Below are positions 4,401 through 49,355 of a stretch of 64,000 nucleotides of DNA, in pieces. Location of the stretch: positions 1,800,001-1,864,000 of the forward strand of contig CM075992.1 in the NCBI GenBank assembly GCA_038087875.1, read 5' to 3'. Each line of letters begins with the position of its first letter. Position 1 is the stretch's first letter. Made by a program: the position numbers and the translations under genes. The DNA is from Malacoraja senta (Eukaryota). The notes under the pieces were generated by a model that saw only the letters and a program-made list of their open reading frames with translations, searched no databases and was not told the origin of the DNA.

Positions 4401-7400
4401 TTGGAGTACAAAACTTCGCTGACAAAATCGTTCCTACCGGCGATTTGTGAATTTTTAAAAAAAATTAAATCGTCAATGTCAGCGCTACAGTAGTTTTAAA
4501 AGCAGCTCCTGAAGCGTCAACGCCAATAACGGGGACGGATTTCACACAATGGATAGGTAAACAAAAGTGCTTTCTTTAAATGTATAAAAGTGCTTCTTAA
4601 GAAGCCTTTAATTCACATTTTGTCATGCGACACGGTGATTTTATTCCCCGAATTAACGGCAGTATTTTTCATGCCAATACGGGGTTAAATTCACCGCAAA
4701 TTAACGTTCCAAATGATCGCGTTCCAGAAATTCTCACTCGCAAAATGAATTAAATCCCCATTAATTTACAGGTATTAAACATTCAATTCCTTCCATTTGG
4801 CCTGTAAATTCATGAAAATTAGATTTAAAAATTATGTTATATTGTGAATTATTGTGTGAATGTTATTTGGACACTTAGGCTATTTAAAAATGTTAATCTA
4901 TTCTTAAGAAAATGATAGATGTTTAGATCTAGTAATTGAATTTTGTAATTAGCTACAATTAGGTAACTAACTAATTATATGCTTTACTTTCATGTCTTCG
5001 AAGTAAGATTGTTTCATATTTGTTTCAGAATGCTTCAATCTATAATACCTGAAAATTTCTTTCAGTTACCATAATTTTTAAGAAAGTTATGGGCTTTTAA
5101 CTGTCCTCGATCACAGCTTTTGTGTTAAGTCAATGGAAAAGCAATAGGGAACAAGGTGCTAATTTCTGAGTATGATAATGGCCATAACTTTTTTAATACT
5201 GAAGATATGAAAGTGAATTAAGTGTCAAATTAAACTTCTTTTTATGCTTTATCTGATGGGATAAATTGCAGACTTTATTTTTTAAATCTCAAAATTTTGT
5301 AACATTGCTACACATCTGCGCCCAAGATGAGGTGTTCCATACTAGGATATCCGAGATGTCCTCATTCTTAAGGGGACTGGGGTTGCCCTCTCCCATCATA
5401 GTTGAGGCCCTCATTCGTGTCAGCTGCGGTAGCCCGCAGCTCCCCCCCCCCTGGTCGCAACAGAGACATACAACACATAATCCTACAAAATTTCTACCAC
5501 CTCCAACGGGATCCCACCACTAGCCACGTTTTGCCATCTCCACCGCTTTCCGCAGAGACCGTTCACTCCGCAACTCCTTGGTTAACTCATCCTTTCCCAC
5601 CCAAACCACCCCCTTCTGAGGTACCTCCCTCTGCAACCGCAGAAGATGCAGATTATATCTGTGCTATGTTAGGATCTTTTCAGAGAGGTTTGACATGCTT
5701 TTACCGGTTCCTCAATTGCGATTGATCGATGTTGATAATTGTGAACAGTGGCTCTGAACACTGACTGAAGAAATCTGCTGACATATAATAAGCTGATAAA
5801 GTCTCCAGATTTGCAGGGAGTGCTGAGGCGGTGAAATCTCAGTCAGAAGCAGTTGAAACTAGCAACGTACTGCAGTGAAACAATACTTACTGAATGCCAG
5901 CCAGGTCTGCCGGAGGTGTAGGTACACACGCAGGTCAGTCTGGAAACCCAGGTCTTTGATATTGATGTCAGAGCCTTGAACGCCTTTCAAACTTGCATAT
6001 TCCATGTAACAGTGATAAATCCCTACGAGAAGCAGATCATTAATTTATAGCTACTGTGACAGGCACTTGATCTAAACTGTTCAGAAACTGGTTTCCTTTC
6101 CCGATAGCTCTAATTTCCCACTTTCCTAACTTCCCACTGATCTTGCTCTCAGTCAGTTTCTGAAACACTTTTCATTGAAGTTCCAGCTGTCTTCTTCTTC
6201 TTGCGTATGGTGTGCACAGCCTAAAGTTGTAGGACAACTTGTATTATTTTATCTTATTTGATTGTGCACACCAGGTTGATTGCATTCGTCAATACAGGGT
6301 GGACCACGTGAAGGTTGCAATCTCTCACCCCAAAGCTCAGGCAGTGCATGCAGCTGAGTTACGAGAGACTTCACAGTCAAATCTCAGCACAATCTCAAAA
6401 CGTCACAAGTCAGTATTTCCTTCCTAAGTCTCATTTTCATAGCGGAGGGTACCAAACCAAACTCAACCTAGGCTATACCAGTCATCTAACCTGGTCTCAA
6501 AATTGTACTGTGGCCCATTGTTACTCCCCCAGGTCACACCGCCAGCAACTACCCTTCTCGTGTCCCACATCAGACGCCGTATCTCTGCCCCTGTCCACAT
6601 TGAGCCCCATCCATCGGTCCCACACTGAGTCTTTGATCTTAGCCAAGGAGATGGTCCTTCATTAAGTTAGGGTACTGCCTGATTCCCTCTATCCCATCGA
6701 GTACATTGGACTTTATCTATGAAACTGATGCACTGCAATGCTGAGAACTATATTCTGCACTCTGTATCTTCCCCTTTGCTCTATCTATTGTACTGGAGTT
6801 TGACTCGATTGCATTTTTCTATGGTATATCTATCGGATTGGATAGCCTGCAAAACAAAACTTTACACTGTTCCTCAATGCACATGTAAATAATAAACCTA
6901 AACTTAGAAGCCTGCTACATGTGTCTCAGAGAAGAGCAGGTTTTTCCCCGATGATCTTTGTAGAAGAATGGCAACTTTGACCTCGGGTCGGAACTGTTGA
7001 CGTACCATAGCTGAGGGCAGCAATGACCAGCAGGATGGATAGCCACACCATGGGTTTGGCAATGAAGCGCATCAACAGAACGAAGACTAGACTCAATACT
7101 AGTGCGAGGACCATACCACTATGGAAGAAAATAGCACTGAATCAGTCAACAACAGCTGGAACCTACACAGCACCCCAGATACAGTGCAGGAATACAACCA
7201 GACCCTAATGTAACACAAAGCCATGTTTGGAGATATTAGGAAAGGTGAATGGAGGATGGAAAAGGAGCTTTAGAGACTGGGAAAGGGTGCAAGAAGTACT
7301 AAAATGGAACAAGCGATAGTCATTTAATTACTTACATCAAAATCCAGTACCAAGACTTGGTGTAATCTTCAAATATCTTCATTACCACCTCTCTGGCATC

Positions 7401-10400
7401 ACGAACTTCATTTGCTCCCCTTTGAAATAAATAGTTCATCCAACATTAAACTTGCATTACAAACACATGGACAATGGGAAGGTAGAGGAAGTGGGCAATG
7501 TGGTGGCTGAGGTGGATGGGGAGAGACAAAAAGTGTCCTAAGGAAATGATGCTCAATGAAGAGGGATTCTGCCTATCCCAGAAACTCCCCGGCTACAAGT
7601 GGCACCCCAAATGTCCAGGTGTTGGGATATCTTAGCTCTGCACTAATGAAACATGGAACTCTACAGATCCGCAGATAAACACAACCCTACATGATCTAAT
7701 GGACAAAATTAATCTCGACCCAAAACATCACATGTTCCTTTTGTCCCGCTGAGTTACTCCAGCATTTTGTGTCTATCTTCGGTGTAAACTAGCATCTGCA
7801 GTTCCTTCCTTAACATTACCAATGTTGGCATCACAGTGTAATCCTTTTTCAAGTCTATAAACAAGGGGTGCCATCCACACCACTTCCCCTACCCCAAGCG
7901 TCACAATAAGTTGGATACTGGCTTTCATATGCGATGCTGGTCCAGGTCCAGCCTAATACGCAGACATATTTTCTCCTTCCCTCGGCCATGTTTAAAGGTT
8001 TGGAGCAGTTTCATAGCAGTTAAATTGGTAACGTACCCAATGCCAAATAAGCTGACATTGTGAACAAGGTAGGTGACATTACATGGTTTAATGTGTGCAC
8101 GCATTACAAGTAGTCCTCTCAGGAGAGCTATATGGCAGTGAAGAGACTGTTTCACCCTATACCTAACAGCTATAGTAGTAGAACAAAATCGTCTGCACTG
8201 CGGCCTAACATCGTGGAGTTGGCGACCTCTTGTTTGGGACTTCTAGAGCTCCAAAACTGTGAAGCCTGCGGACTTTAACATCACGGAGCAGGCGATCCCT
8301 TTGCCAGGGGTCGGCCTTTGGTGCTCCAACCTGCGGGGGCTGCAGACTTTAACATCGTGAAGCTCACGGTCCCTGGTTAGCGACCGATTTCGGGAGGTCC
8401 AAACCGCAGGAGTTCTACCGTCCCTATGCAGGAGCTTAGACCTCCCCGACGTGGGAGCTCGATCGCCGGCTGCGGATGGTTCGACTCCCCCAACCGCGGG
8501 AGGAAAGAAGGAAAGAAGATAAGGCTTTATTGCCTTCCATCACAGTGGGGAACGTGGAGGAGTCGCCATGGTGGATGTTTATGTTAATTTTTTATGTAGT
8601 TGTGTGTCTTGTTGCTTTTTTGGTATGACTGTATGGCAAACCAAATTCCTCATATGTTGCAAAACATACTTGGTTAATAAATTACGATTATGATCTTTAA
8701 TTATCTCGGGGCAATTATTTATTCAAACAAACAAGAATGTTGCAAGAGATGAAGAGTGGCCTACACAGCCAAATCTCTGGCGATTCAACCCATTTCCATC
8801 CTCGCAATGGATTGCAAGACCAGATTACATACTTAAATCTGAGGGTACAGTTTGAATCGCAGTCTTCTCTCATAGCTGGAAATGTACCATTACCGAGCTA
8901 AAGCAATATATGTGTGACTTTAAGCTACAGAATAGATGAACCGAATTTATACCTCTCACTGCCTTGGGAAGGCCAGCAGCTTAATAATGGACGAGTCGCA
9001 CCCTGGCCACTCCCTCTTCTCCCCTCAGGCAAAGGGTACAGAAGTGACAATACAAAGCCGTGTGGCACCATGAGTTATGAAGAATGAGTTACAGAAGTGT
9101 GAAAACGCACAGCGCCAGATTCAAACCTCCAGTTTCTTTCCGGCTGTTATCAGGCAACTGAACCATCCTACCACGACCAGAGAACAGTGCTGAACTACTA
9201 TCTACTATAGACCCTTGGACTATGCTTCATTGGACTTTGCTGGCTTTACCTTGCACTAAACATTATTCCCTTATCATGTATCTATACACTGCAAATGGCT
9301 CGATTGTAATCATGTGTTGTCTTTCTGCTGACTGGATAGCATGTAACAAAAGCTTTTCACTGTACCTCGGTACACATGACAATAAACTAACTAAACTAAA
9401 CTAAATTCACAGTTCATCTGACCTGGGAGAGTTCAATACTCACTGAAACATTTCCTGGTGTGGAAAGGTTCTCCCCAGCCCATCTCACTAGCGGGAGAGT
9501 CACAAACATGGAGATATAGCTACAAAACAAGTGGTCAATCATTTAAGACTGAGCTAAGTAGAAATTTCTCCGCCCTTAGAGGGTTACAAATCTCTTGAAT
9601 TCACTGATCTGATGTGGTGGAGGCTAGATCATTAGATGTATATACAGTGGCTTGCAAAAGTATTCATACCCCTTGAACTTTTCCACATTTTGTCACGTTA
9701 CAACCACAAACGTAAATGTATTTAATTGGGATTTTATATGATAGACCAACACAAAGTGGCGCATAATTGTGAAGTGGGAGGAAAATGACACATGGTTTTC
9801 AAATTTTTTTTACAAATAAAAAACTGAAAAGTGTGGCGTGCAAAAGTATTCAGCCCCCTTTACTCTGATACCCCTAAATAAAATCCAGTGCAACCAATTG
9901 CCTTCAGAAGTCACCTAATTAGTAAATAGTGTCCACTTGTGTGTAATCTAATCTCAGTATAAATCCATCATCCGAAAATGGAAAGAGTATGGCACAACTG
10001 AAAACCTACCAAGACATGGCTGTCCACCTAAACTGACAGGCCGGGCAAGGAGAGCATTGATCAGAGAAGCAGCCAAGAGGCCCATGGTAACTCTGGAGGA
10101 GCTGCAGAGATCCACAGCTCAGGTGGGAGAATCTGTCCACAGGACAACTATTAGTCGTGCACTCCACAAATTGGGCCTTTATGGAAGAGTGGCAAGAAGA
10201 AAGCCATTGTTGAAAAAAAGCCATAAGAAGTCCCGTTTGCAGTTTGCCACAAGCCATGTGGGGGACACAGCAAACATGTGGAGGAAGGTGCTCTGGTCAG
10301 ATGAGACCAAAATTGAAGTTTTTGGCTTAAATGCAAAACGCTATGTGTGGCGGAAGCATAACACTGCAACTACCACATCAAACTAACACATCACCCTGAA

Positions 10401-22400: not shown

Positions 22401-25400
22401 CTGCTGTACCTGCATGCTTACTTTCATAGACTGATGTACAAGGACCCCCAGATCCTATTGTACTTCTCCTTTTCCCAACTTGAAGCCATTTACATAGTAG
22501 TCTGCCTTCCTGTTTTTGCTACCAAAGTGGATAACCTCACATTTATCCGCATTAAACTTCATCTGCCATGCATCTGCCCGCTCCCCCAACCTGTCCAAGT
22601 CACCCTGCATTGTCATAGCCTCCTCCTCACAGTTCACACTGCCACCCAGCTTTGGGTCATCTGCAAATTTGCTAATGTTACTTTGAATCCCTTCATCCAA
22701 ATCATTGATGTATATTGTAAATAGCTGCGGTCCCAGCACCGAGCCTTGCGGTACCCCACTAGTCACTGCCTGCTATTCTGAAAGGGACCCGTTAATCCCT
22801 ACTCTTTGTTTCCTGTCTGCCAACCACTTCTCTATCCATGCCAGTTGGATTTTAAAAAATCTTAAACCGCGCATGCACAGCTTGTTCTCTCCGTAAGCTG
22901 TCAGTCAACTTTTATAAAGTCTTCAAAAGCCAAATCTCTTAATAAAGTACCGTATTTCCCGGCAATGAAAAAGCACCCCCATTTTGAGTTGCTAAATTTT
23001 GAAAGAAGGCTGGTGGGACATAGAATTTCTTTCGCTCAAAAAAATAAATAAAATAAAGCAATTTGTCCAAGGCTTCCAAATCTCCTTCATTCTGAATTAC
23101 TGAATGGGTGGGGGGTGGAGGGTGATGGCAGGTGGAGAGATGGTGGGAAAAACGGGTGCACACCGGGACAAGTTGAATCAGTTGTGATCTTATTGAATGA
23201 CAATACTTGTTCAAGGGACCAATTGGGGGGGAGAGTTCTTTTCACAGCGTGTGGGAAGTCTGGTCAGGGGTAAAGTTGCGGGGAGGGCAGAAGCATTGAG
23301 AAGGAGGGGTCAGGGATCATGCGTGTAACTCACTCACCGCTGCTGTGGCGCTCCGGGCGCGGAACCACCACATTGTGGCCGGGGAGAAAAGCAGCTTGGG
23401 TGGCTGCGAGCGGCCGCTGGGACCGGACAGCAGAACAGGACGCCACCTCAGCGCCTTCTGCCGGCCCGCTCACCTCTGGCAGTGCTCTCGGTCTGAACAT
23501 CTCTCACCTGCCGCTCGCCGGCTTCGCTCTTGTCAGCCGCTTCCCGCAAATCCTTAAATTCCAACAGCCGAGTAACCTCAATTGGTCCCTTGATCGCGCT
23601 GTTGGAATTTAAGGATTTGCGGTAAGCGGCTGACATGAGTGAGGCCGGCGAGTGGCAGGAGAGAGGTTTTCAGATGGAGAGCACTGACAGAGGTGAGCGG
23701 GGGCCGGCAGAAGGAGCTGAGGTGGTCCCGGCGGCCGCTCGCAGCCACCCGAGCTACTTCTCCACCTGGCCAGAATGTGGTGGCTCCGCGCACATAGCTT
23801 CGCGGCAAGTGAGTTGCTGGCATGATCCCCGACCCCCTCCTTCTCAACGCTCCTGCCCTCCCCGCAACTTTACCCCGGGCCAGACTCCCCACAACCTGTG
23901 AAAGGAACTCTCCCCACCTCAGCGGCGCTGTCCTTTTACAGCCGCTTCCCATCAGCTGCCAGCAATGAGGGATAGACTTAGCTATCCCTCAGCACAACAA
24001 CATCGTCCTTGATATTGCTGTACTGAGGGATAGCCAAGTCTATCTTTCTTGGCTAACAACCTCCCAACTTCGGCTTCCAAGACACATGTAAATTTTCGTG
24101 CCTTATTTTTGGGTAAAAAAATAGCGTCTTCATTGCCGGGAAATACGGTATTTAAAAACATATAACACCAAGAAATTTACTTACCACATCATTTGTACAT
24201 GAACTCCATTCTTCTCTCTTTGTTTCTTAAGATACTCTTAAGATAATGGCAATCCATGTTTGAAAACCCCGCCAAGAAACTTGCGCTGCGCAGTACTGCA
24301 AAGGCAGAATTTCAGCTGCCTTCAGTACCCTGGAACGTCAGCTGCACAGACGTGTTACATGTACTGCGGATGAAAGGCATGGGAGAATTATGCCTACCTT
24401 AGAGATCGATCTCTTAGGTAGGCATTATTCTCCCATGCCTTTGCTATTTATATTTAATATTACCATTTTATTATTTTAGTCAGGGTAGGCAGTGCCTACC
24501 TTGCCTACCCTGACGGCACGTGCCTGCATGAAATAGTACCACATTCATGGAATTTAGTACCTACACCCCTCGATACTTGCTGAAGCTAAGCAACTAGAAA
24601 GCAAGTCTCTCAAAAAGAGCATAACACAAATGAGGAAACTTCCCAACTCAAGGGGCGTGGCCATTCTCTCCACAGATGTTGCCTGATATGCCGAGTTCCC
24701 CCAGCACTGTGTGTTTTGCTCAAGATTACAACATCTGAATCAACCAAAAAGGGGTTTTTATATGGTTCAATATATTATAGAGGACAAAAGGAGTTTTAAT
24801 AATTTCTGAATTTTAATAATTTCTGAATTTATAATGGCACAGCATCTTTTAGCTCGAGTCAAGCAAGAACGATCATGACTGGATTTACTTCCTCTGTGAC
24901 ATAGATGCCACAGGATGCGGCATGATCAATTATAGAAAATAAAACCAAAAATACCAGAACATCCTGCAGCTTATTCAAATGTAAATTCTCTACACCTGGA
25001 ATGATCTTTTGTTTTTACAAGCACCACCTGGTCTATGTATTTTTTTTAAATATTAGGGGTGGAAGTTGGTCTGGGCATAGTGGGAGCTGGGAATATTATT
25101 CTTTAAAAAGTGGCCTAATTAACAGTAGCTTACAATTGCATCTTCTACCCTCTTTTGTTGAAAACATTACTGCTTTGCAAAGAACAGCTACATCACCACA
25201 GGAAACTGTTTAGTGCCAAGTTCCACTCTGCTTGTTTGCAAGTACTCGGGTGACTTATTTTAAACCTAAGGCAACCTCACCTAAAATCAAACTCTGGAGA
25301 GATGGAATGGGTGACATTTTGGGTCGAGACCCTTCTTCAGACTTTTAGTTTTCAGCCTATCACTTTTAGTGGTTCACTCTGAGAAGATAGGAATTGTTTC

Positions 25401-28400
25401 TCAGGGTTCAAGAATTCTACTTCCTGCTGAAGTTGTTGACAATAAACCAAAAGAAGCTGAAAAGTTGATCTGACAAATAATCTGAATGCTTCAAACTATA
25501 AACTACTTAAAGGGCTTTCACAGTCAGAGGAAACAAAGAAAAGATATGCCAAAAGAGTTGAGGATAAATTAAGCAAGACCAGTGGACGAAGCAGACAGAG
25601 GCAGGTTACAGTGTATGGAAGGGCTGGCAGGCACAACTGCTTTTACTTTAATGCAACAGACGCCAGATAAGCTTAGAGCATAGACCAGTACTTCGAATTA
25701 GGATGTTATTGCAATCAGGGAAACATGGTTGCGGAAAAGGAAGGACTGTAAGCTTATCGTTATGGGCTCAAAAGTTTCAGACGTGACAGGAGCAATGCCA
25801 AAGATAGATAAAATCCAGAGGCGGGCTGAATGTCCTAATTCTGCTCCTAGAACTTATGATATTGTATTGGGTTGACAGTGCGATGGTACCAGAACCTTAC
25901 GAGGTATGATGAAAAAAAGACAATTGACAGAAGATGACAAAATCTGTCGACCCAATACAGTATCATAAGTTCTAGGAGCAGAATTAGGACATTTGGCCCA
26001 TCTCTGGATTTTATCTATCTCTGGATTTCTGGATCTCCAGAGCATCTCTGGAGAAAAGGAATACGTGACGGTACCTTCAGCTTTAACATCATCTATCTCT
26101 TTCCTCCAGAGATGCTGCCTGACACTTTGAGTTAGTCCAGCTTTTTGTGTCTCTCTTTTGCTTCCAGCATTGTCGTTTTTAATTTCCAGCATCTATATTT
26201 TGATTTTGATTTTCTGAAGACTATGCTTTACATACACATGGGCACCATGTGCAAAGTGGGAAAGTGGGGTTGACTGCATTGCTAGCATTCAGAACATCAA
26301 AACGGAAACCAGTTCTGTTTTCCCCACGAAGCCACACATTTCGCAGCCATGGTGGGTGATCACAGACAGGAACTTCTCCCACCCATGCATATCAAGGCTC
26401 ATAGACAAACCCAGATGCTGTACTGGTTAACTGACTGATCACCCAATTATTTTTGAACGGCTCATCAACTATACCATTACTGCGTCTCTTCAGTAAACAT
26501 TGGCTGAGGCCAGACCAGTATTAAACTGGAGAGAACTACACCCACTCAAGAGTGTAGATACAACGGCCTACTGGTTTCATGCCACCCAGTAATCCCCACA
26601 CTAGGGACAATTTACAATTTTACCAAGCCAATTAGCAGCTGATCTACATCGGTGAGACCAAGCGTAAGCTTGGCGATCGTTTCGCCGAACACCTCCACTC
26701 GGTCCACATTAACCAACCTGATCTCCCTGTGGCTCAGCACTTCAACTCCCCCTCCCATTCCGAATCCGACCTTTCTGTCCTGGGCCTCCTCCATGGCCAG
26801 AGTGAACACCACCGGAAATTGGAGGAGCAGAACCTCATATGGGCAGTCTGCACCCCAGCGGCATGAACATCGACTTCTCTAATTTCCGGTAGCCCTTATT
26901 GTCTCCTCCCCTTCTCAGCTCTCCCTCAGCCCTCTGGCTCCTCCTCTCCCTATCTTCTTCCCACCACCCCCCCCCCCAAAACGTTGCCTATTTCCTTCAC
27001 TCCATAGATGCTGCTGCACCCGCTGAGTTTCTCCAGCACTTTTGTCTACCTTCGACTTTCCAGCATCTGCAGTTCCTTCTTAAACATAACAGTCAACCTA
27101 TATATCAGTATGTCTTTGGAGTGTGGGAGGAAACCAGAGCACCTGGAGAAAACCCACAGATCACAGGGAGAACGTAAAAACTCCATACAGACAGCACCTG
27201 TAGTCACGATCGATCCTGGGTCTCTAGCACTAAGGCAGCAATTCTACCGTTGTGCCCACGTGCCGCCCTATTCTTCAGCAATTCTATAGTTTTAATCACC
27301 ACTACTTTCTTACATTGTTTTCTTTTAATTTCACATTTTTAATTGAATTTATATCTCATGGATCTGCTGGAGTTCTTTGAGGAAAATGGCAGGACAGATA
27401 GAGGGGAGGCCTAGATTTTCAGAAGGCCTTTGATAAGGTGCCGCACGTTAGGCTGCTAGGGAAGTTGTGAGCTCATGATATTGAAGGGAAGACAAGCATG
27501 GAAAGGAAGTTGGCTGAAGGGCAAAGAGTTGCAATAAATAGCGCTCTTTCAGGTTGGCTGCTTGTGACTAGTGGAGTTCCGCAGGGGTCAGCGTTGGAGC
27601 CGCTTCTCTTCACGTTGTATATTTATGATTTGGATAAGGTGATTGAAAGCTTTGTGGCCAAGTTTGTAGATAATGCTAAGATCGGTGGAGGGGCATGCAG
27701 TGTAGAGGAAACAAGGACTCTGCAGAAGGACTTAGACAGGTTAGGAGAGTGGGCAGAGAAGTGGCAGAAATTCAGCATAGCAAAGTGCGGAGTCATGCAT
27801 TTTGGTAATAAGAATAAAAGGTGTAGATTATTTCGTAAATGGGAAGAGAATCCAGAAATCGGAGGTGCAAAGGGATTTAATTTGCAAGGTGCAAAAGTCA
27901 ATTTGCAAGTCAAATCGGTCAAAGTAAGGAAGGCAAATTCAAAGCTAGCATTTATATCAAGATGACTGGAATGTAAAAACAGAGATGGAATATAGAAGTT
28001 CTATAAGGCCAGGCTGCATTGGGAGTATTGTGAGCAAATTTGGGCCCCATATCTGAGGAAGGATGTGCTGACTCTGCAGAGGGACCAGAGGAGATTTACA
28101 AGAATGATTCCGGGAATCAGTGGGTTAGCATATGGCGAGCGTTTGACTGCACTGGGCCTTTACTTGCTGGCGTTTAGAAGGTTGAGGGGGGGACCTCATT
28201 GAAACTTACAGAATAATGAATAGAATGGATGTGGTAAGGATGTTTCCACTGGTAGGAGAGTCTACGACCAAAGGTCACAGCCTCAGAATTAAAGGGCGCT
28301 CTTTTAAAAAGGTGAGGAACTTCTTTAGTCAGAGAGTAGTTGTTAAGACAGTAGTAAATGCAATTTCGTTCAAACCAGGCTGTTTTAATGACAATAAAAG

Positions 28401-40256: not shown

Positions 40257-40380
40257 TGTGTCGATGCTATTCAGAAGAATGCAAGCTCTGATAAGACTTA
40301 TGCGCCTTTTTGAGGGGGTTCTGCCTGCACAACTGAGTGACATTGTAGGCTCCACATTTCCTTGATCATCCTTGCTGGCT

Positions 40381-40520
40381 TTCTTCTTCTTGCGTATGGT
40401 GTACACAGCCTAAAGTTGTAGGACAACTTGTTCTATTTGATCTTATTTGATTATGCACGGCAGGTTGATTGCATTTGTCGAAACAAGGCGGACCACGTGT
40501 AGGTTGCAATCTCCCACCAC
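40381..40520 (-). mobile_element. ~140-bp Ingi/Vingi-like non-autonomous retroelement
   Basis: Same family; TSD cttgctggct (40371-40380) / cttgctagct (40521-40530). Confidence 0.75.
40467..40520 (-). ncRNA. Minimal HDV/CPEB3-like ribozyme motif, copy 2 (more decayed)
   Basis: GUGGUGG GA GAUUGCA ACC UACACGU GGU CCGCCUU GU UUCGA CAAA UGCAAUC. Confidence 0.65.
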
Positions 40521-43500
40521 CTTGCTAGCTTTGATTTTTTCTTTTGCATACCTTTGTTCTTTGTACGTCTTCATACCTCCAGCTTCCCTCCCCTGACTGT
40601 CTGAAAGGTCTCAACCCGAAATGTCACCTATTATTTTTCTCCAAAGATGCTGCCTGACCTGCTGAGTTACTCCAGCATTTTGTGTCTACCTTGAGTGACA
40701 TAACCTTTTGAGTTGGATGTCCAACTCGGAGAGATAATGCTACCAATACTGCTGGGAGACAATTGGCTGGGTGAAAGACCCACTGGTGTGCTGGATATTT
40801 GCTGGTCTTCGGGGCAAGGAGCTGTTCACAATCAGGCTTAAGCGCAGAGGAATACGCTGATAGTTTTGTGGTATTGTCACAAAATATGTATGGGGAAAAA
40901 GTCCACAGATTAAGGCCTTATGGCCACTGCAGACAAAGGAGTTTGTATTTAAACCACATCCTCTCCTGGATTGGAAAGAGAGTATATACAAGGAAAATTA
41001 ATGTCCTGCTGACTTAATGTACTGCGATGTACATTAAGACACCAGGACATCATTTTTCCTTATATACTTAATGTAATGTAATGCAAATTTTACACGCAAA
41101 TACTATTTTGTAAATAGTACAAATATTTACAATGAATTAAGATTGTGCAGAGAATTATACAGACTCTACATTACAATTGGTGGTCATCAAGCTGTGTTTC
41201 ATTTTCAAGTTTTTGTTGCATCTCTGGCAGTGATTTGTGGACTACAATTTAGCTAAGAATTTAAAAAAAACTCGTAAACCTTTTGGTATTGTCTTTACTC
41301 TGTGTTTAATAATTATTTTACTAACAGAAATGATGTCTCCCTACTTCTATCAAAATTGTATTTGCTTTAACTCTCCCAGCTCTACTTATCTATATCCCAC
41401 ATCAGGAACACAGCTTAGCATGTGATCACATTGCTATTTGTGAGAACGTCCTGTGCATAAGTCAGCAGACTTGCTCCTCTAGTATCTTTGCTTTCTATCT
41501 TCCATCCACAATGAATGATGATCATTATTCATAAGCACATTATTATCTTTAACTGATTTGGGCTGTCGTTAGAGAAAGGCATGCGTGCATAGCTAAGACA
41601 TCTTTCCAGTCTATGGTGCTTTACAAGAAATGAAATCTTTCTTCGGTATTCTGTGCTAACGTTAACAACTTGTGTGCAACAAGCTTCCATACAAACAATA
41701 TTGCGGAATAAATGTAGGCCAGAACCGAGTTGAACTTTGCTGCTCTACTTAAAAATAATGCATTTCATGCATAACATTCTTTATGACCTCCTCCTAGTAG
41801 AGCAGAGCCTTGACATCATCGAGAATATAGCGTAGCAGCTCCTCCACATTATTGGCCTACATTCTAGTGCTTCATTATCTGGACTGGTATTTGATCAAAC
41901 AACTTTCATACAAAGTGATGAAAGCTAAGCTACAGTATATACAAAATACCGATCCACAAATAGTTCCCAAAGATGATCAATTTGAGTTAAGTATAGAGAT
42001 GTAAGATTGGGGTTAACCCAAAATAAAAATAAACAATTATGTAGAATTAGGTTACTTCAACATTTTTTACGATTTCAATATTATCCGTTACTTCACAAGA
42101 TCTGGTGATAACATAACATAAAACCTCTTGGGTTAAACAGTATTACAAACCTCATATTCTATCTTTTCTATTGTTAAAGCACCACAAGTTAAAAATAGTG
42201 ACACTTGCAGCATACTAAAGAATAATAAGGGTCAAAAGAGCACACGGAACAACAACCGGCTCCTCTCCCTGCGCTGTAGAACGGAGCGGTTCAGGAGATC
42301 CTTCACCCCTGCAGCCATTAGATTTTATAATACTGACCGCTAGGCTGTATGGGGATGCTTTGCATTTTTAATAGTTAATTATTGGGTCTTTTTAAGTATT
42401 TATTGTTTTCATGTATTGTCCATATTGTATATTATGTATTTTTTGTCTGCTTTCGTTCTGAATGTGTGGGTTTGTTGGCTTCTGGACATCTGAATTTCCC
42501 TGAGGGGATCAATAAAGTATTTATTATTATTAAAGCTTTATTTTGTTGATACTTGTGCAACTGTTGGCTGAAAACATATCAATAAATTTGGAAACAATAA
42601 ATGAGGCAACTGTCAACCCTTAATATGCACTTAGTTTTGTTTTTATAGCCCTAACACACTTCATAAGAATTCCTTTGTCCACCACTATTGATATTTTATT
42701 TTAAATCTACCTGCAATAGTAATGCAGCATTGGGCCTGCCAGTAAAATTAAAGGACAGCTCAGTGGCACAGCTAGTAGATCTGCTGCCTCATAACTCCAA
42801 CCATTTGGTTCAACCCGAACCTCCATTGTTGTGTGTGTGGAGCAATGTATGTTCTCCATGTTACCACATGAGTTTCTTCCAGTTTCCTCCCACATTCCAA
42901 AAAGTGCAGGGTGGTAATTGAATTGACCATTAAAAATTGCAGGATCAGGTGAGTGGCAGAACCTGGTAAAGAACTGATAGAAATGTGGGGGAAATGGATT
43001 TGTATAGATGTATATTTGATGGTAACCATGGATTTAGTGGGCAGAACAGGCTGTTTCAGTGCTGTATGGCACTTTAATTTAAAAAAGACAAAATTCTAGA
43101 AATAGTTATTCAGCACCCGCAGACTGAGTTTATTTTTGTTTAGAGATATAACGAAGAAACACGCCCTTTGTCCCTCTGATGGCCACTAGGGATGGACAAT
43201 ATATACTAGTTTGTCAGAGTTATCTACACGCCATAACCAAATAAAGAAAATGTGTAGCGCCTATGTGTGTTACAAAAGGCCTCATTATTTGGACCCTTAT
43301 GTTGATCAGTGCTAGCTCTGCTGCAAACAATGATGTATGGAAAAGTAAATGGGGTCATATATTTCAAAATTTCAGTGTAGCAGAACTCTCCTGAAATTGA
43401 GCCAAATTTCCAGGTAGTTACTCAGTACCACAGTGAGGGGCTGGTCCCCACCTGATCTCTGATCCTGCACACATTCCACATACAGTGCTGTTTCAGGCTT

Positions 43501-47596: not shown

Positions 47597-49355
47597 TTTG
47601 TTTTTTTTAAATATTTTTATTTTATTAGAAGTACAATTGTATACAATCATATTTTCATAATACCTTTTATCTACAGCTTCTTATTTAAATTTTTTTTTGA
47701 AATAAAGAAGAAAAAGAAAACAGTTAATGAAAAACAGAAAAATGTGAGATATATAGTGTGTGAAAAAGAAAAATAAAGAATGAAAAAAGAAAGTTGAGAC
47801 ATAGAAAATAGAAGAAAGAGAATAAAAGAAGAGAAGAGAAGAAAAGAAAATAGATCATTTATAATCTTGACCATCCGCAGTCACGGATTAGCTTTTACAC
47901 CTGTTTTGCACCATATGTTTCCAAAAAGACGACAAATGGAGACCAACTCGTTATGAATTGGTCAAATTTATCTATTAGGAGGAATCGCATTTCCTCAAGA
48001 TGTGCGGTATCCAACATACTTGCAATCCACATTTTGAGCGTTGGTATTGGTGTATTTTTCCAAAATTTCAATATTAATTTTTTTGCTATTATTAAACCAT
48101 AATTAAAAATTGACTTTTGAGATGAGCTCAATTTGTTCCCGTCTTCCATTACCCCAAATATAATCAATTCATTATTGGGTTCCATTTTTGTCTTAAATAG
48201 TTTTGTAAATATTTTGAAAATATCACTCCAAAATCCATGAAGTTTTAATGAAGAAACAAAAGAGTGTGTTATAGTTGCGTCTTGGGTTAAACATTTATCG
48301 CAAATGGGCGATATATTTGGATAAAATTTATTTAATCTTGTTTTTGAGTAATATAATCTATGTAAAATTTTTAATTGGATTAGGTTATGTCTTGCGTTAA
48401 TCGAACACTTGTGAATGTATGTCAAATACTTTTCCTATGTAGCCTTCATAATTTTTATCAATAATTCCCGTTCCCACTCTTCTCTAATTACCTCGGTCAC
48501 AGGTAAATCTATATTTAAGATACTATTATATAAATATGATATTAATTTTTGTGTATCAGCTTTTATATTCATTACTTCTTCTAGTAAATCAGGAGTTATT
48601 TTTTGATATCCCTGTATGTATGTCTTCAAAAAATTACAAATCTGAAAATATTTAAAATAATGAGTGTTTTTCAGTTTAAATTGTAATTGTAATTGTTGAA
48701 ATGATAATAAATCTCCCATTTCATACATGTCCCCGATCCTTTTAATTCCTAAACTTTCCCATTGATTATATATTTTATCCATCATAGATGGTTTAAATAA
48801 AGGATTATTCGCTATCGGTGTTAACAATGATAGGTTTCTTAATTTTAAGGATAATTTTATTTGTTTCCATATTCTTATTGTATCTTGTATAATTGGGTTT
48901 TTCTTATATATTGTATTGTTCATTTTTTTCAGGGAGAAGAGGATTGTTCCTATATTACAAGGATAACAATCCTCTTTCTCCATTTTTATCCATTCTGTCT
49001 GTTGAGTTGAACTATCCAACCAGTAAATTATATTCTTAATATGTATTGCCCAATAGTAATACAAAAAATTAGGGAGTGAAAGTCCCCCGACATCTTTTGG
49101 TTTACATAAGTGTTCTTTTTTAATTCTATGTGATTTATAATCCCAAACAAAATTAGTAATATTAGCGTTCAGTTTAGAAAAAAAATATTTTGGTACATAT
49201 ACTGGTATAGATTGAAATAGGTATAATAACTGTGGTAGGAAGCTCATTTTAATAGCATTTATTCTGCCTATTAATGATAAAGGGAGTGTTTTCCAAAATG
49301 TTATCATTATATTAAGTTTATTTATTAAGGGTATAAAATTGGCATTGAATAAAGC
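47597..49355 (-). mobile_element. L1-clade LINE, 5'-truncated, ORF2 C-terminal part
   Basis: WKTLPLSLIGRINAIKM..LLYLFQSIP, C-terminal CDKC..H; poly-T on the + strand; TSD TTATTGTGTG(TG)TTTT. Confidence 0.92.

What the first reader, a model, noticed from the sequence alone, without database searches (positions are those of the whole stretch)
6191..6331. ~140-bp retroelement whose 5' end is a minimal CPEB3/HDV-like ribozyme
Seen: two copies (6191-6331, 40381-40520) give the consensus GGGGUGG GA GAUUGCA ACC UUCACGU GGU CCRCCCU GU UUCGA CGAA UGCAAUC (54 nt). It has a 7-bp P1 with G1-U wobble, a perfect 7-bp P2, a 3-bp P3, L3 UUCACGU, J1/4 GU and J4/2 CGAA, with the catalytic-position C at 6288 and 40477; P4 is reduced to about 5 nt. 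In copy 2 the TSD abuts G1 (to within 1 nt), so the element starts at the predicted cleavage site. Established: UUCACGU, GU and CGAA are the L3, J1/4 and J4/2 of the mammalian CPEB3 ribozyme, and Ingi/L1Tc- and R2-type retroelements use 5' HDV-like ribozymes to free their 5' ends. Inference: a ribozyme-headed, internally deleted Ingi/Vingi derivative with no Pol III promoter, carrying an unusually compact HDV-like fold.
Basis: partly seen in the sequence, partly recalled or inferred. Interest (0 to 1): 0.85.

Follow-up and report, generated by a model that had tools for sequence, protein, structure and literature searches.

The report
Ribozyme-headed mini-retrotransposon from a Vingi-like LINE
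This 140-base jumping element, present in thousands of copies in an animal genome, is the two ends of a larger retrotransposon joined together, and it begins with a very small fold predicted to be a self-cutting RNA that would free it from passing transcripts without a promoter of its own.

Summary
Confirmed and extended. Both copies lie on the minus strand and belong to a large family (3,628 exact matches to a 29-nt core, control 0; about 10,000 copies estimated). 94 of 116 distinct copies start exactly at the predicted cleavage G, usually beside an 11-12-bp target duplication. The autonomous partner is in the same genome: a 2.8-kb single-ORF APE-RT-zinc-finger element without RNase H (Vingi-type architecture) sharing the first ~77 and last ~38 nt. 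It has the same 5-nt L4, so the compact fold was inherited, not made by the deletion. Three distant relatives begin with HDV-like folds whose P1, P2 and P3 differ in sequence but still pair. One matches Rfam's mammalian CPEB3 ribozyme above its threshold (55.6 vs 35 bits). Against: cleavage and expression are untested; the element itself has no Rfam ribozyme hit; each window copy has a broken P1 pair; the catalytic C is not protected from CpG decay among copies. Verdict: a known kind (like R2 SIDEs and NARTc) in a new form, a predicted P4-less HDV-like ribozyme in a eukaryote, plus a lead that the CPEB3 ribozyme is a domesticated Vingi-type head.

The parts
6191..6331 (-). Copy 1 of the ~140-bp non-autonomous element
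   Evidence: empty site in another organism's contig
6278..6331 (-). Predicted 54-nt HDV-like ribozyme of copy 1: P1 6331-6325 with 6302-6296 (pair 7 broken in this copy), J1/2 6324-6323, P2 6322-6316 with 6284-6278, P3 6315-6313 with 6305-6303, L3 6312-6306, J1/4 6295-6294, L4 6293-6289, J4/2 6288-6285; predicted cut just 5' of 6331
   Evidence: fold inferred from pairing and from relatives, not assayed
6255..6277 (-). Rest of the segment shared with the 5' UTR of the autonomous element; holds the 5' arm of a stem that closes the 3' half
   Evidence: blastn to L223; fold
6233..6254 (-). Junction segment not aligned to the autonomous element; supplies one arm of a 6-7-bp hairpin with the LINE-derived tail
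6203..6232 (-). Last codons, stop codon (6223-6221) and 3' UTR of the autonomous element; likely the reverse-transcriptase recognition site
   Evidence: role inferred
6191..6202 (-). (AAG)n tail
   Evidence: same tail on short and long elements
40381..40520 (-). Copy 2 of the element
40467..40520 (-). Predicted ribozyme of copy 2 (P1 pair 2 broken, L3 altered, J4/2 CAAA; catalytic-position C at 40477)
40370..40382 (.). Target-site duplication of copy 2, tail side
40520..40532 (.). Target-site duplication of copy 2, head side, overlapping G1 by one base

Best explanation
The element is an internally deleted, non-coding derivative of a Vingi-type LINE of the same genome, and its first 54 bases are predicted to fold into a P4-less HDV-like ribozyme that likely cuts the RNA just before G1. 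Shown: it is the LINE's first ~77 nt joined through ~22 nt to the LINE's last ~38 nt and (AAG)n tail; most copies start at G1 beside a target duplication. Inferred: a source copy is transcribed by read-through from a host promoter; the ribozyme trims the RNA to G1 and the tight fold protects the uncapped end; the LINE's APE-RT protein binds the 3' end in trans and inserts a copy by target-primed reverse transcription; the 5' junction is closed through 1-3 nt of microhomology, often at a target T. After insertion copies decay neutrally, so only part of the family would still cut.
For: Start at G1 in 94 of 116 distinct copies, and 44 of 58 in the set chosen by the 3' end alone; duplication found in 88 of 107 near-full copies and within 1 nt of G1 in 70 of 88. 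Autonomous partner with the same head and tail, flanked by a 10-bp duplication (L223), its ORF collinear with an intact 1019-aa APE-RT protein. Partner and short copies are of similar age, about 2% versus 2-4% non-CpG divergence. All positions of the published HDV descriptor (G1-Y, L3 U/C/G, J4/2 C-x-A-A; PMC6326823 passages) are present except the second P1.1 pair, which Rfam's CPEB3 consensus also lacks. Common variants in nt 1-54 fall in J1/2, L4, the second J4/2 base, or keep their pair. 3 of 18 upstream regions of related ORFs hold a full HDV-like fold with different stem sequences, against 0 of 18 reverse strands and 0 of 216 shuffles; all three sit at the element's edge beside a target duplication (clear in L277 and L282, short in L264). 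G at -1 is not enriched (11 of 94, background 21%), as expected for uncapped RNA (the expectation is recalled). P4-less ribozymes are active in vitro (PMC10879173 passages).
Against: No cleavage or expression data; no RNA-labelled run was listed and contigs cannot show RNA ends. No Rfam ribozyme model hits the element even at E up to 10. The catalytic C is not protected among copies: C44T 212 versus control C41T 181 (p 0.13), and the G-to-A excess is present at both CpGs (412 and 664). Only three subfamily-level changes lie in the ribozyme, so within-family support is weak. The descriptor was tuned after viewing the relatives and missed 15 of 18 regions (by eye: truncated, other clades, or a variant with an L3 insertion). 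A single P1.1 pair combined with no P4 may be slow or inactive. No intact LINE ORF was seen among the two long copies whose ORFs were listed.
Confidence: 0.75

Rival explanations
1. The head is mainly an internal RNA polymerase II promoter that starts transcription at G1; the ribozyme fold is a second or vestigial function, as in the dual Pr77 region of L1Tc.
For: Precise starts at G1 fit a fixed transcription start too. Pr77 is both promoter and ribozyme (abstract start of PMC3383444). About 10,000 copies imply efficient transcription of the sources.
Against: No excess G at -1. Distant relatives keep the pairing but not the stem sequences, which points to an RNA structure rather than a DNA motif. 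This rival can coexist with the best explanation.
Confidence: 0.12
2. The fold forms but no longer cuts; it is kept as a structural cap or as a binding site for the LINE protein, and the sharp 5' end comes from another processing step.
For: In R2 templates the benefit of the HDV fold is attributed to stability, not necessarily activity (PMC11331408 discussion). No P4 and only one P1.1 pair. The catalytic C is not protected among copies.
Against: C44, A46 and A47 are the commonest letters in old and young subfamilies and in the LINE, and in all three distant heads. Neutral decay after insertion explains the CpG result. Another source of the exact G1 start would be needed.
Confidence: 0.11
3. 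It is an ordinary tRNA-derived, polymerase III SINE with a LINE tail, and the HDV-like pairing is coincidence.
For: Size and copy number are SINE-like; a loose B-box-like word with two mismatches overlaps L4.
Against: No tRNA in 7 of 7 loci; no A box at up to 2 mismatches and no exact B box; the head is the 5' end of the autonomous LINE.
Confidence: 0.02

Closest known systems
R2 SIDEs (short internally deleted elements) of Drosophila; PMC3414825, abstract read
   Same: 5' HDV-like ribozyme joined to the 3' end of the parent LINE, mobilised in trans
   Different: R2 has a different endonuclease and inserts only in 28S rDNA, and SIDEs are rare; this family is dispersed, APE-driven and has about 10,000 copies
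NARTc, RIME and SIDER elements of trypanosomatids (L1Tc/ingi clade, Pr77); PMC4035085 abstract, PMC5786205 passages
   Same: Bipartite non-autonomous derivative of an Ingi-related LINE headed by an HDV-like ribozyme
   Different: 77-nt head that is also a promoter; here a 54-nt fold in an animal, with a partner that lacks RNase H
Non-autonomous Vingi derivatives (Vingi-1_EE; Kojima et al. 2011, cited in PMC5786205 and PMC4494074 passages; the paper itself was not held)
   Same: Internal deletion of a compact single-ORF LINE without RNase H
   Different: [quoted passage not shown]
Mammalian CPEB3 ribozyme (Rfam RF00622)
   Same: L3 UUCACGU, J1/4 GU, J4/2 CGAA, single P1.1 pair and helix lengths, as in the Rfam consensus shown
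   Different: Different stem sequences, no P4, no Rfam hit; CPEB3 is a single-copy intronic element
Minimal HDV-like and theta ribozymes; PMC10879173 passages and one section
   Same: P4 absent, size near 54 nt
   Different: Reported as nearly 99% confined to phages, often beside tRNAs, with none reported from the eukaryotic genomes searched there; here it heads a eukaryotic retroelement

Membership tests
HDV-like ribozyme | Nested double pseudoknot: P1 7 bp with G1-Y, P2, P3 3 bp in HDV order | tested here: met
   each window copy has one broken P1 pair
HDV-like ribozyme | Conserved core: L3 U/C/G, catalytic C first in J4/2 followed by x-A-A | tested here: met
   against the descriptor in PMC6326823
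HDV-like ribozyme | Two-pair P1.1 (CC with GG) | tested here: not met
   only one C-G pair plus U-U, as in Rfam's CPEB3 consensus; relatives L277 and L282 have both pairs
HDV-like ribozyme | P4 helix (dispensable in minimal forms) | tested here: not met
   5-nt loop in both short and long elements; only 2 of 5 longer variants are not local duplications, and they carry a foreign insertion
HDV-like ribozyme | Covariation of stems among homologues | tested here: met
   across distant LINE heads L264, L277, L282; inconclusive inside the family
HDV-like ribozyme | Mg2+-dependent self-cleavage 5' of G1, lost in the C-to-U mutant | not testable with these tools
   needs a bench assay
Rfam CPEB3_ribozyme RF00622 | Score at or above gathering threshold 35 bits | tested here: not met
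   no hit at E up to 10 in the window or in copy L002; relative L277 scores 55.6; L282 has no hit
Bipartite non-autonomous LINE | 5' end and 3' end of one autonomous LINE joined, no ORF, target duplications | tested here: met
Vingi clade (partner) | Compact single ORF with APE and RT, no RNase H (definition from PMC13708176 passage) | tested here: met
   P0001, 72% identical to the partner RT region, has APE, RT and a weak zinc-finger hit and no RNase H at E up to 1; it maps collinearly on L223 and L224
Vingi clade (partner) | RT phylogeny grouping with named Vingi elements, apart from Ingi | tested here: inconclusive
   tree holds no named Vingi or Ingi reference; the 25-row group containing the partner has support 88/77 only
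tRNA-derived SINE | tRNA-like head with A and B boxes | tested here: not met

The most novel reading that the evidence does not exclude
Vingi-type LINEs are headed by CPEB3-type ribozymes. This family carries an active P4-less form, so far described almost only from phages, in over a thousand intact copies across an animal genome, and the mammalian CPEB3 ribozyme, said to have no outgroup outside mammals, is a domesticated 5' end of such a LINE.
Probability: 0.35. Interest if true: 0.85.

Novelty: new variant of a known kind. Interest (0 to 1): 0.62.

Why it matters
If it cleaves, a 54-nt ribozyme plus about 85 nt is enough for a promoter-less retroelement to reach about 10,000 copies, and a large animal genome is seeded with strand-specific self-cutting sites that could cut host pre-mRNAs. 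It extends P4-less HDV-like ribozymes from phages to eukaryotes and adds the Vingi-type clade, used as a gene-insertion platform (PMC13708176), to the LINEs with ribozyme heads; the short element marks the natural minimal template. The relative L277 gives a candidate non-mammalian outgroup and a mobile origin for the CPEB3 ribozyme, which PMC8233481 says has not been found outside mammals.

Tried and rejected
Long-P4 ancestor: a gap pattern found 5 longer variants; 3 are local duplications and 2 carry a 20-22-nt palindrome that occurs elsewhere in the genome with its own short flanking repeats, so they are insertions, not the ancestral form. Selection on the catalytic C among copies: not detected. 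A T at -1 as part of the element: rejected, since 26 of 33 duplications that end exactly at G1 end in T, so the T mostly belongs to the target. RTE as partner (guessed from the tail): rejected once the partner was found. A competing UUCG hairpin over J1/4-L4-C44: predicted pairing probability 0.04-0.05, in a model that cannot represent the pseudoknot. Expression: no RNA holder listed; contigs cannot show RNA ends. DNA alignment A2 was discarded: one reference was wrong and the stems did not align. Paper searches that found no description of this family: 0 papers; uninformative. Earlier scan findings: nothing. Ruminski 2011, Kojima 2011, Webb 2009 and Webb and Luptak 2011 were not held; these, their supplements and Repbase may already list Vingi ribozymes, P4-less eukaryotic examples or CPEB3-like invertebrate sequences.

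Full report
Observation. The two copies are real, 90% identical over 138 nt, and lie on the minus strand. Read from G1 (6331 and 40520), the first 54 nt follow HDV order: P1 7 bp with a G1-U wobble, 2-nt J1/2, P2 7 bp, P3 3 bp, L3 UUCACGU, J1/4 GU, a 5-nt loop in place of P4, and J4/2 CGAA. Each window copy has one broken P1 pair, and copy 2 also has an L3 change. Rfam gives no ribozyme hit on the window or on a cleaner copy at E up to 10. The window lies in a 1.94-Gb genome. That it is a cartilaginous fish is only my recalled impression of its other repeats and was not tested.

Family. A 29-nt ribozyme-core motif has 3,628 exact matches and an 18-nt tail motif 4,530, with reversed controls at 0. 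35 of the first 100 tail matches have an exact core beside them, which gives about 10,000 copies by capture-recapture, a rough and probably low figure. I analysed three sets: C, the best matches to copy 1 (biased to full length); A, the first 30 core matches; B, 60 of the 65 tail matches lacking an exact core. After dropping copy 1 itself and three duplicates, 116 remained. 94 start at G1 and 107 within 4 nt; in set B, which was not chosen by the head, 44 of 58 start at G1. Target duplications were found in 88 of the 107, mostly 11-12 bp (54 of 88), ending within 1 nt of G1 in 70 of 88. T stands at -1 in 62 of 94 (background 30%, p 4e-13), mostly as part of the duplication; G at -1 is not enriched. 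An intact predicted core is present in 20 of 28 (C), 15 of 30 (A) and 9 of 58 (B); weighting A and B suggests about a quarter of tail-matching copies, so over a thousand. Contigs of four runs from four studies and four organisms carry the element with loose ends at its borders, and one contig joins the flanks of copy 1 without it.

Partner. Two set-B loci continue upstream into an ORF ending in a Cys-Cys-His-Cys motif whose last codons and stop are the short element's tail. Walking upstream gave long copies that begin with the same ribozyme head, with the same 5-nt loop and J4/2 CUAA. L223 is 2.8 kb, with head, tail and a 10-bp duplication. It shares nt 2-77 and the last 38 nt with copy 1. Its ORF is broken but collinear with residues 29-1019 of P0001 apart from one internal gap. 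P0001 is 72% identical to the partner's RT region and has APE and RT domains and no RNase H hit; most listed homologues are about 1000 aa on 3.1-3.5-kb contigs. That fits the definition of Vingi given in PMC13708176 (passages), but my tree had no named reference, so the clade name rests on architecture. The search found 498 candidates for the LINE 3' end and 50 for an inner part (lower bounds). LINE 3' ends (24 after dropping six duplicates) diverge about 2% outside CpG, young short copies 2-4%, and an older subfamily that shares the LINE's CUAA about 6% from its pooled majority.

Is the fold real? Inside the family, common variants in nt 1-54 are at position 8 (J1/2), 32 (U-G or U-A, still paired), 41-42 (loop, CpG) and 45 (second J4/2 base). 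This fits the fold but rests on three subfamily-level changes. A genome-wide count found no protection of the catalytic C: C41T 181, G42A 664, C44T 212, G45A 412 (C44T versus C41T p 0.13). Copies therefore decay neutrally, which neither supports nor refutes activity of the sources. The stronger test comes from relatives. Of 80 metagenome loci, 18 distinct ones had sequence upstream of the ORF start. A relaxed descriptor, tuned after I had seen them, found a full HDV-like fold in 3 of 18, in 0 of 18 reverse strands and in 0 of 216 shuffles. Their P1, P2 and P3 sequences differ from ours yet pair (one mismatch each in L264 and L282), and their P4 regions are 17-30 nt. L277 and L282 are complete elements with a tail and a clear duplication next to G1; L264 has a short one. 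A fourth, L259, looks by eye like a variant with a helix inserted in L3. The other regions are truncated, belong to a more distant group, or show nothing.

CPEB3 lead. The head of L277 matches Rfam's mammalian CPEB3 ribozyme at 55.6 bits (threshold 35, E 3e-14). It equals the consensus at 35 of the first 38 positions and 10 of the last 11, and two of the three differences restore the second P1.1 pair. Its P4 and flanks differ, and a truncated sibling (L301) has the same 3' part, so mammalian contamination is unlikely. Stem identity is not required by the fold, which suggests common descent. [quoted passage not shown] The papers most likely to have noted such sequences were not held, so novelty is uncertain, and convergence on a good sequence is not excluded.

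Mechanism. Shown: bipartite anatomy, start at G1, target duplications, partner of similar age, no tRNA head or A/B box. Inferred: read-through transcription, self-cleavage before G1, protection of the uncapped end by the fold (as proposed for R2 templates in PMC11331408, abstract and discussion read), binding of the 3' end by the LINE protein in trans, and target-primed reverse transcription. P4-less ribozymes are active and reported as nearly confined to phages (PMC10879173, passages and one section; PMC6326823 passages). Cleavage and expression of this element are untested.

Comparison and verdict. It works like R2 SIDEs (PMC3414825, abstract) and the trypanosomatid NARTc, RIME and SIDER elements (PMC4035085, abstract; PMC6765202, passages). 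Internally deleted Vingi derivatives are known, but PMC5786205 (passages) does not list Vingi among clades with ribozyme heads. Searches (listings only, apart from papers cited) found no description of this family; Repbase and supplements were not seen. New variant of a known kind; interest 0.62.

Noticed in passing
L277:3617-3690 (also L278; truncated sibling L301): Head of a complete Vingi-type element that passes Rfam's mammalian CPEB3 ribozyme threshold; a candidate mobile origin and outgroup for that ribozyme.
   Followed up: partly
window 6264-6273 with 6210-6219 (minus strand); the two ends of L223: A stem joins the LINE-derived 5' UTR piece to the 3' UTR piece. In the LINE these arms lie about 2.7 kb apart at the two ends. 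The 3' half folds at -22.0 kcal/mol in a young copy and -9.5 in an old one, so end-to-end pairing may aid mobilisation.
   Followed up: partly
L068-L097; inside the ribozyme loop of L064 and L065: A 20-22-nt perfect palindrome flanked by short direct repeats at many unrelated sites, probably a tiny DNA-transposon remnant. Two element copies with different flanks carry it in the L4 loop.
   Followed up: partly
whole genome, element nt 41-45: At both CpGs G-to-A on the sense strand outnumbers C-to-T (664 vs 181; 412 vs 212). Unexplained: source-level variants or strand-biased mutation.
   Followed up: no
L236, L239, L244, L247, L251, L253: Many long copies have the head joined to an inverted 3' piece and lack its first 5-15 nt or more (by eye), like twin-priming inversions.
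   Followed up: no
L129, L161, L252: Other, independent internal deletions of the same LINE with different junctions; the 140-nt form is the one that amplified.
   Followed up: no
L259:423-556: HDV-like head with a long helix inserted in L3, read by eye; missed by the descriptor.
   Followed up: no
window 23225-23918: Long nested inverted repeat (arms 81-89% complementary), likely a non-autonomous DNA transposon.
   Followed up: no
window 9952-10386, 27471-27965, 47895-48434: Tc1-type transposase fragment, an RT fragment and a weak RT zinc-finger hit; no host gene domain among the 16 ORFs scanned of 74.
   Followed up: no
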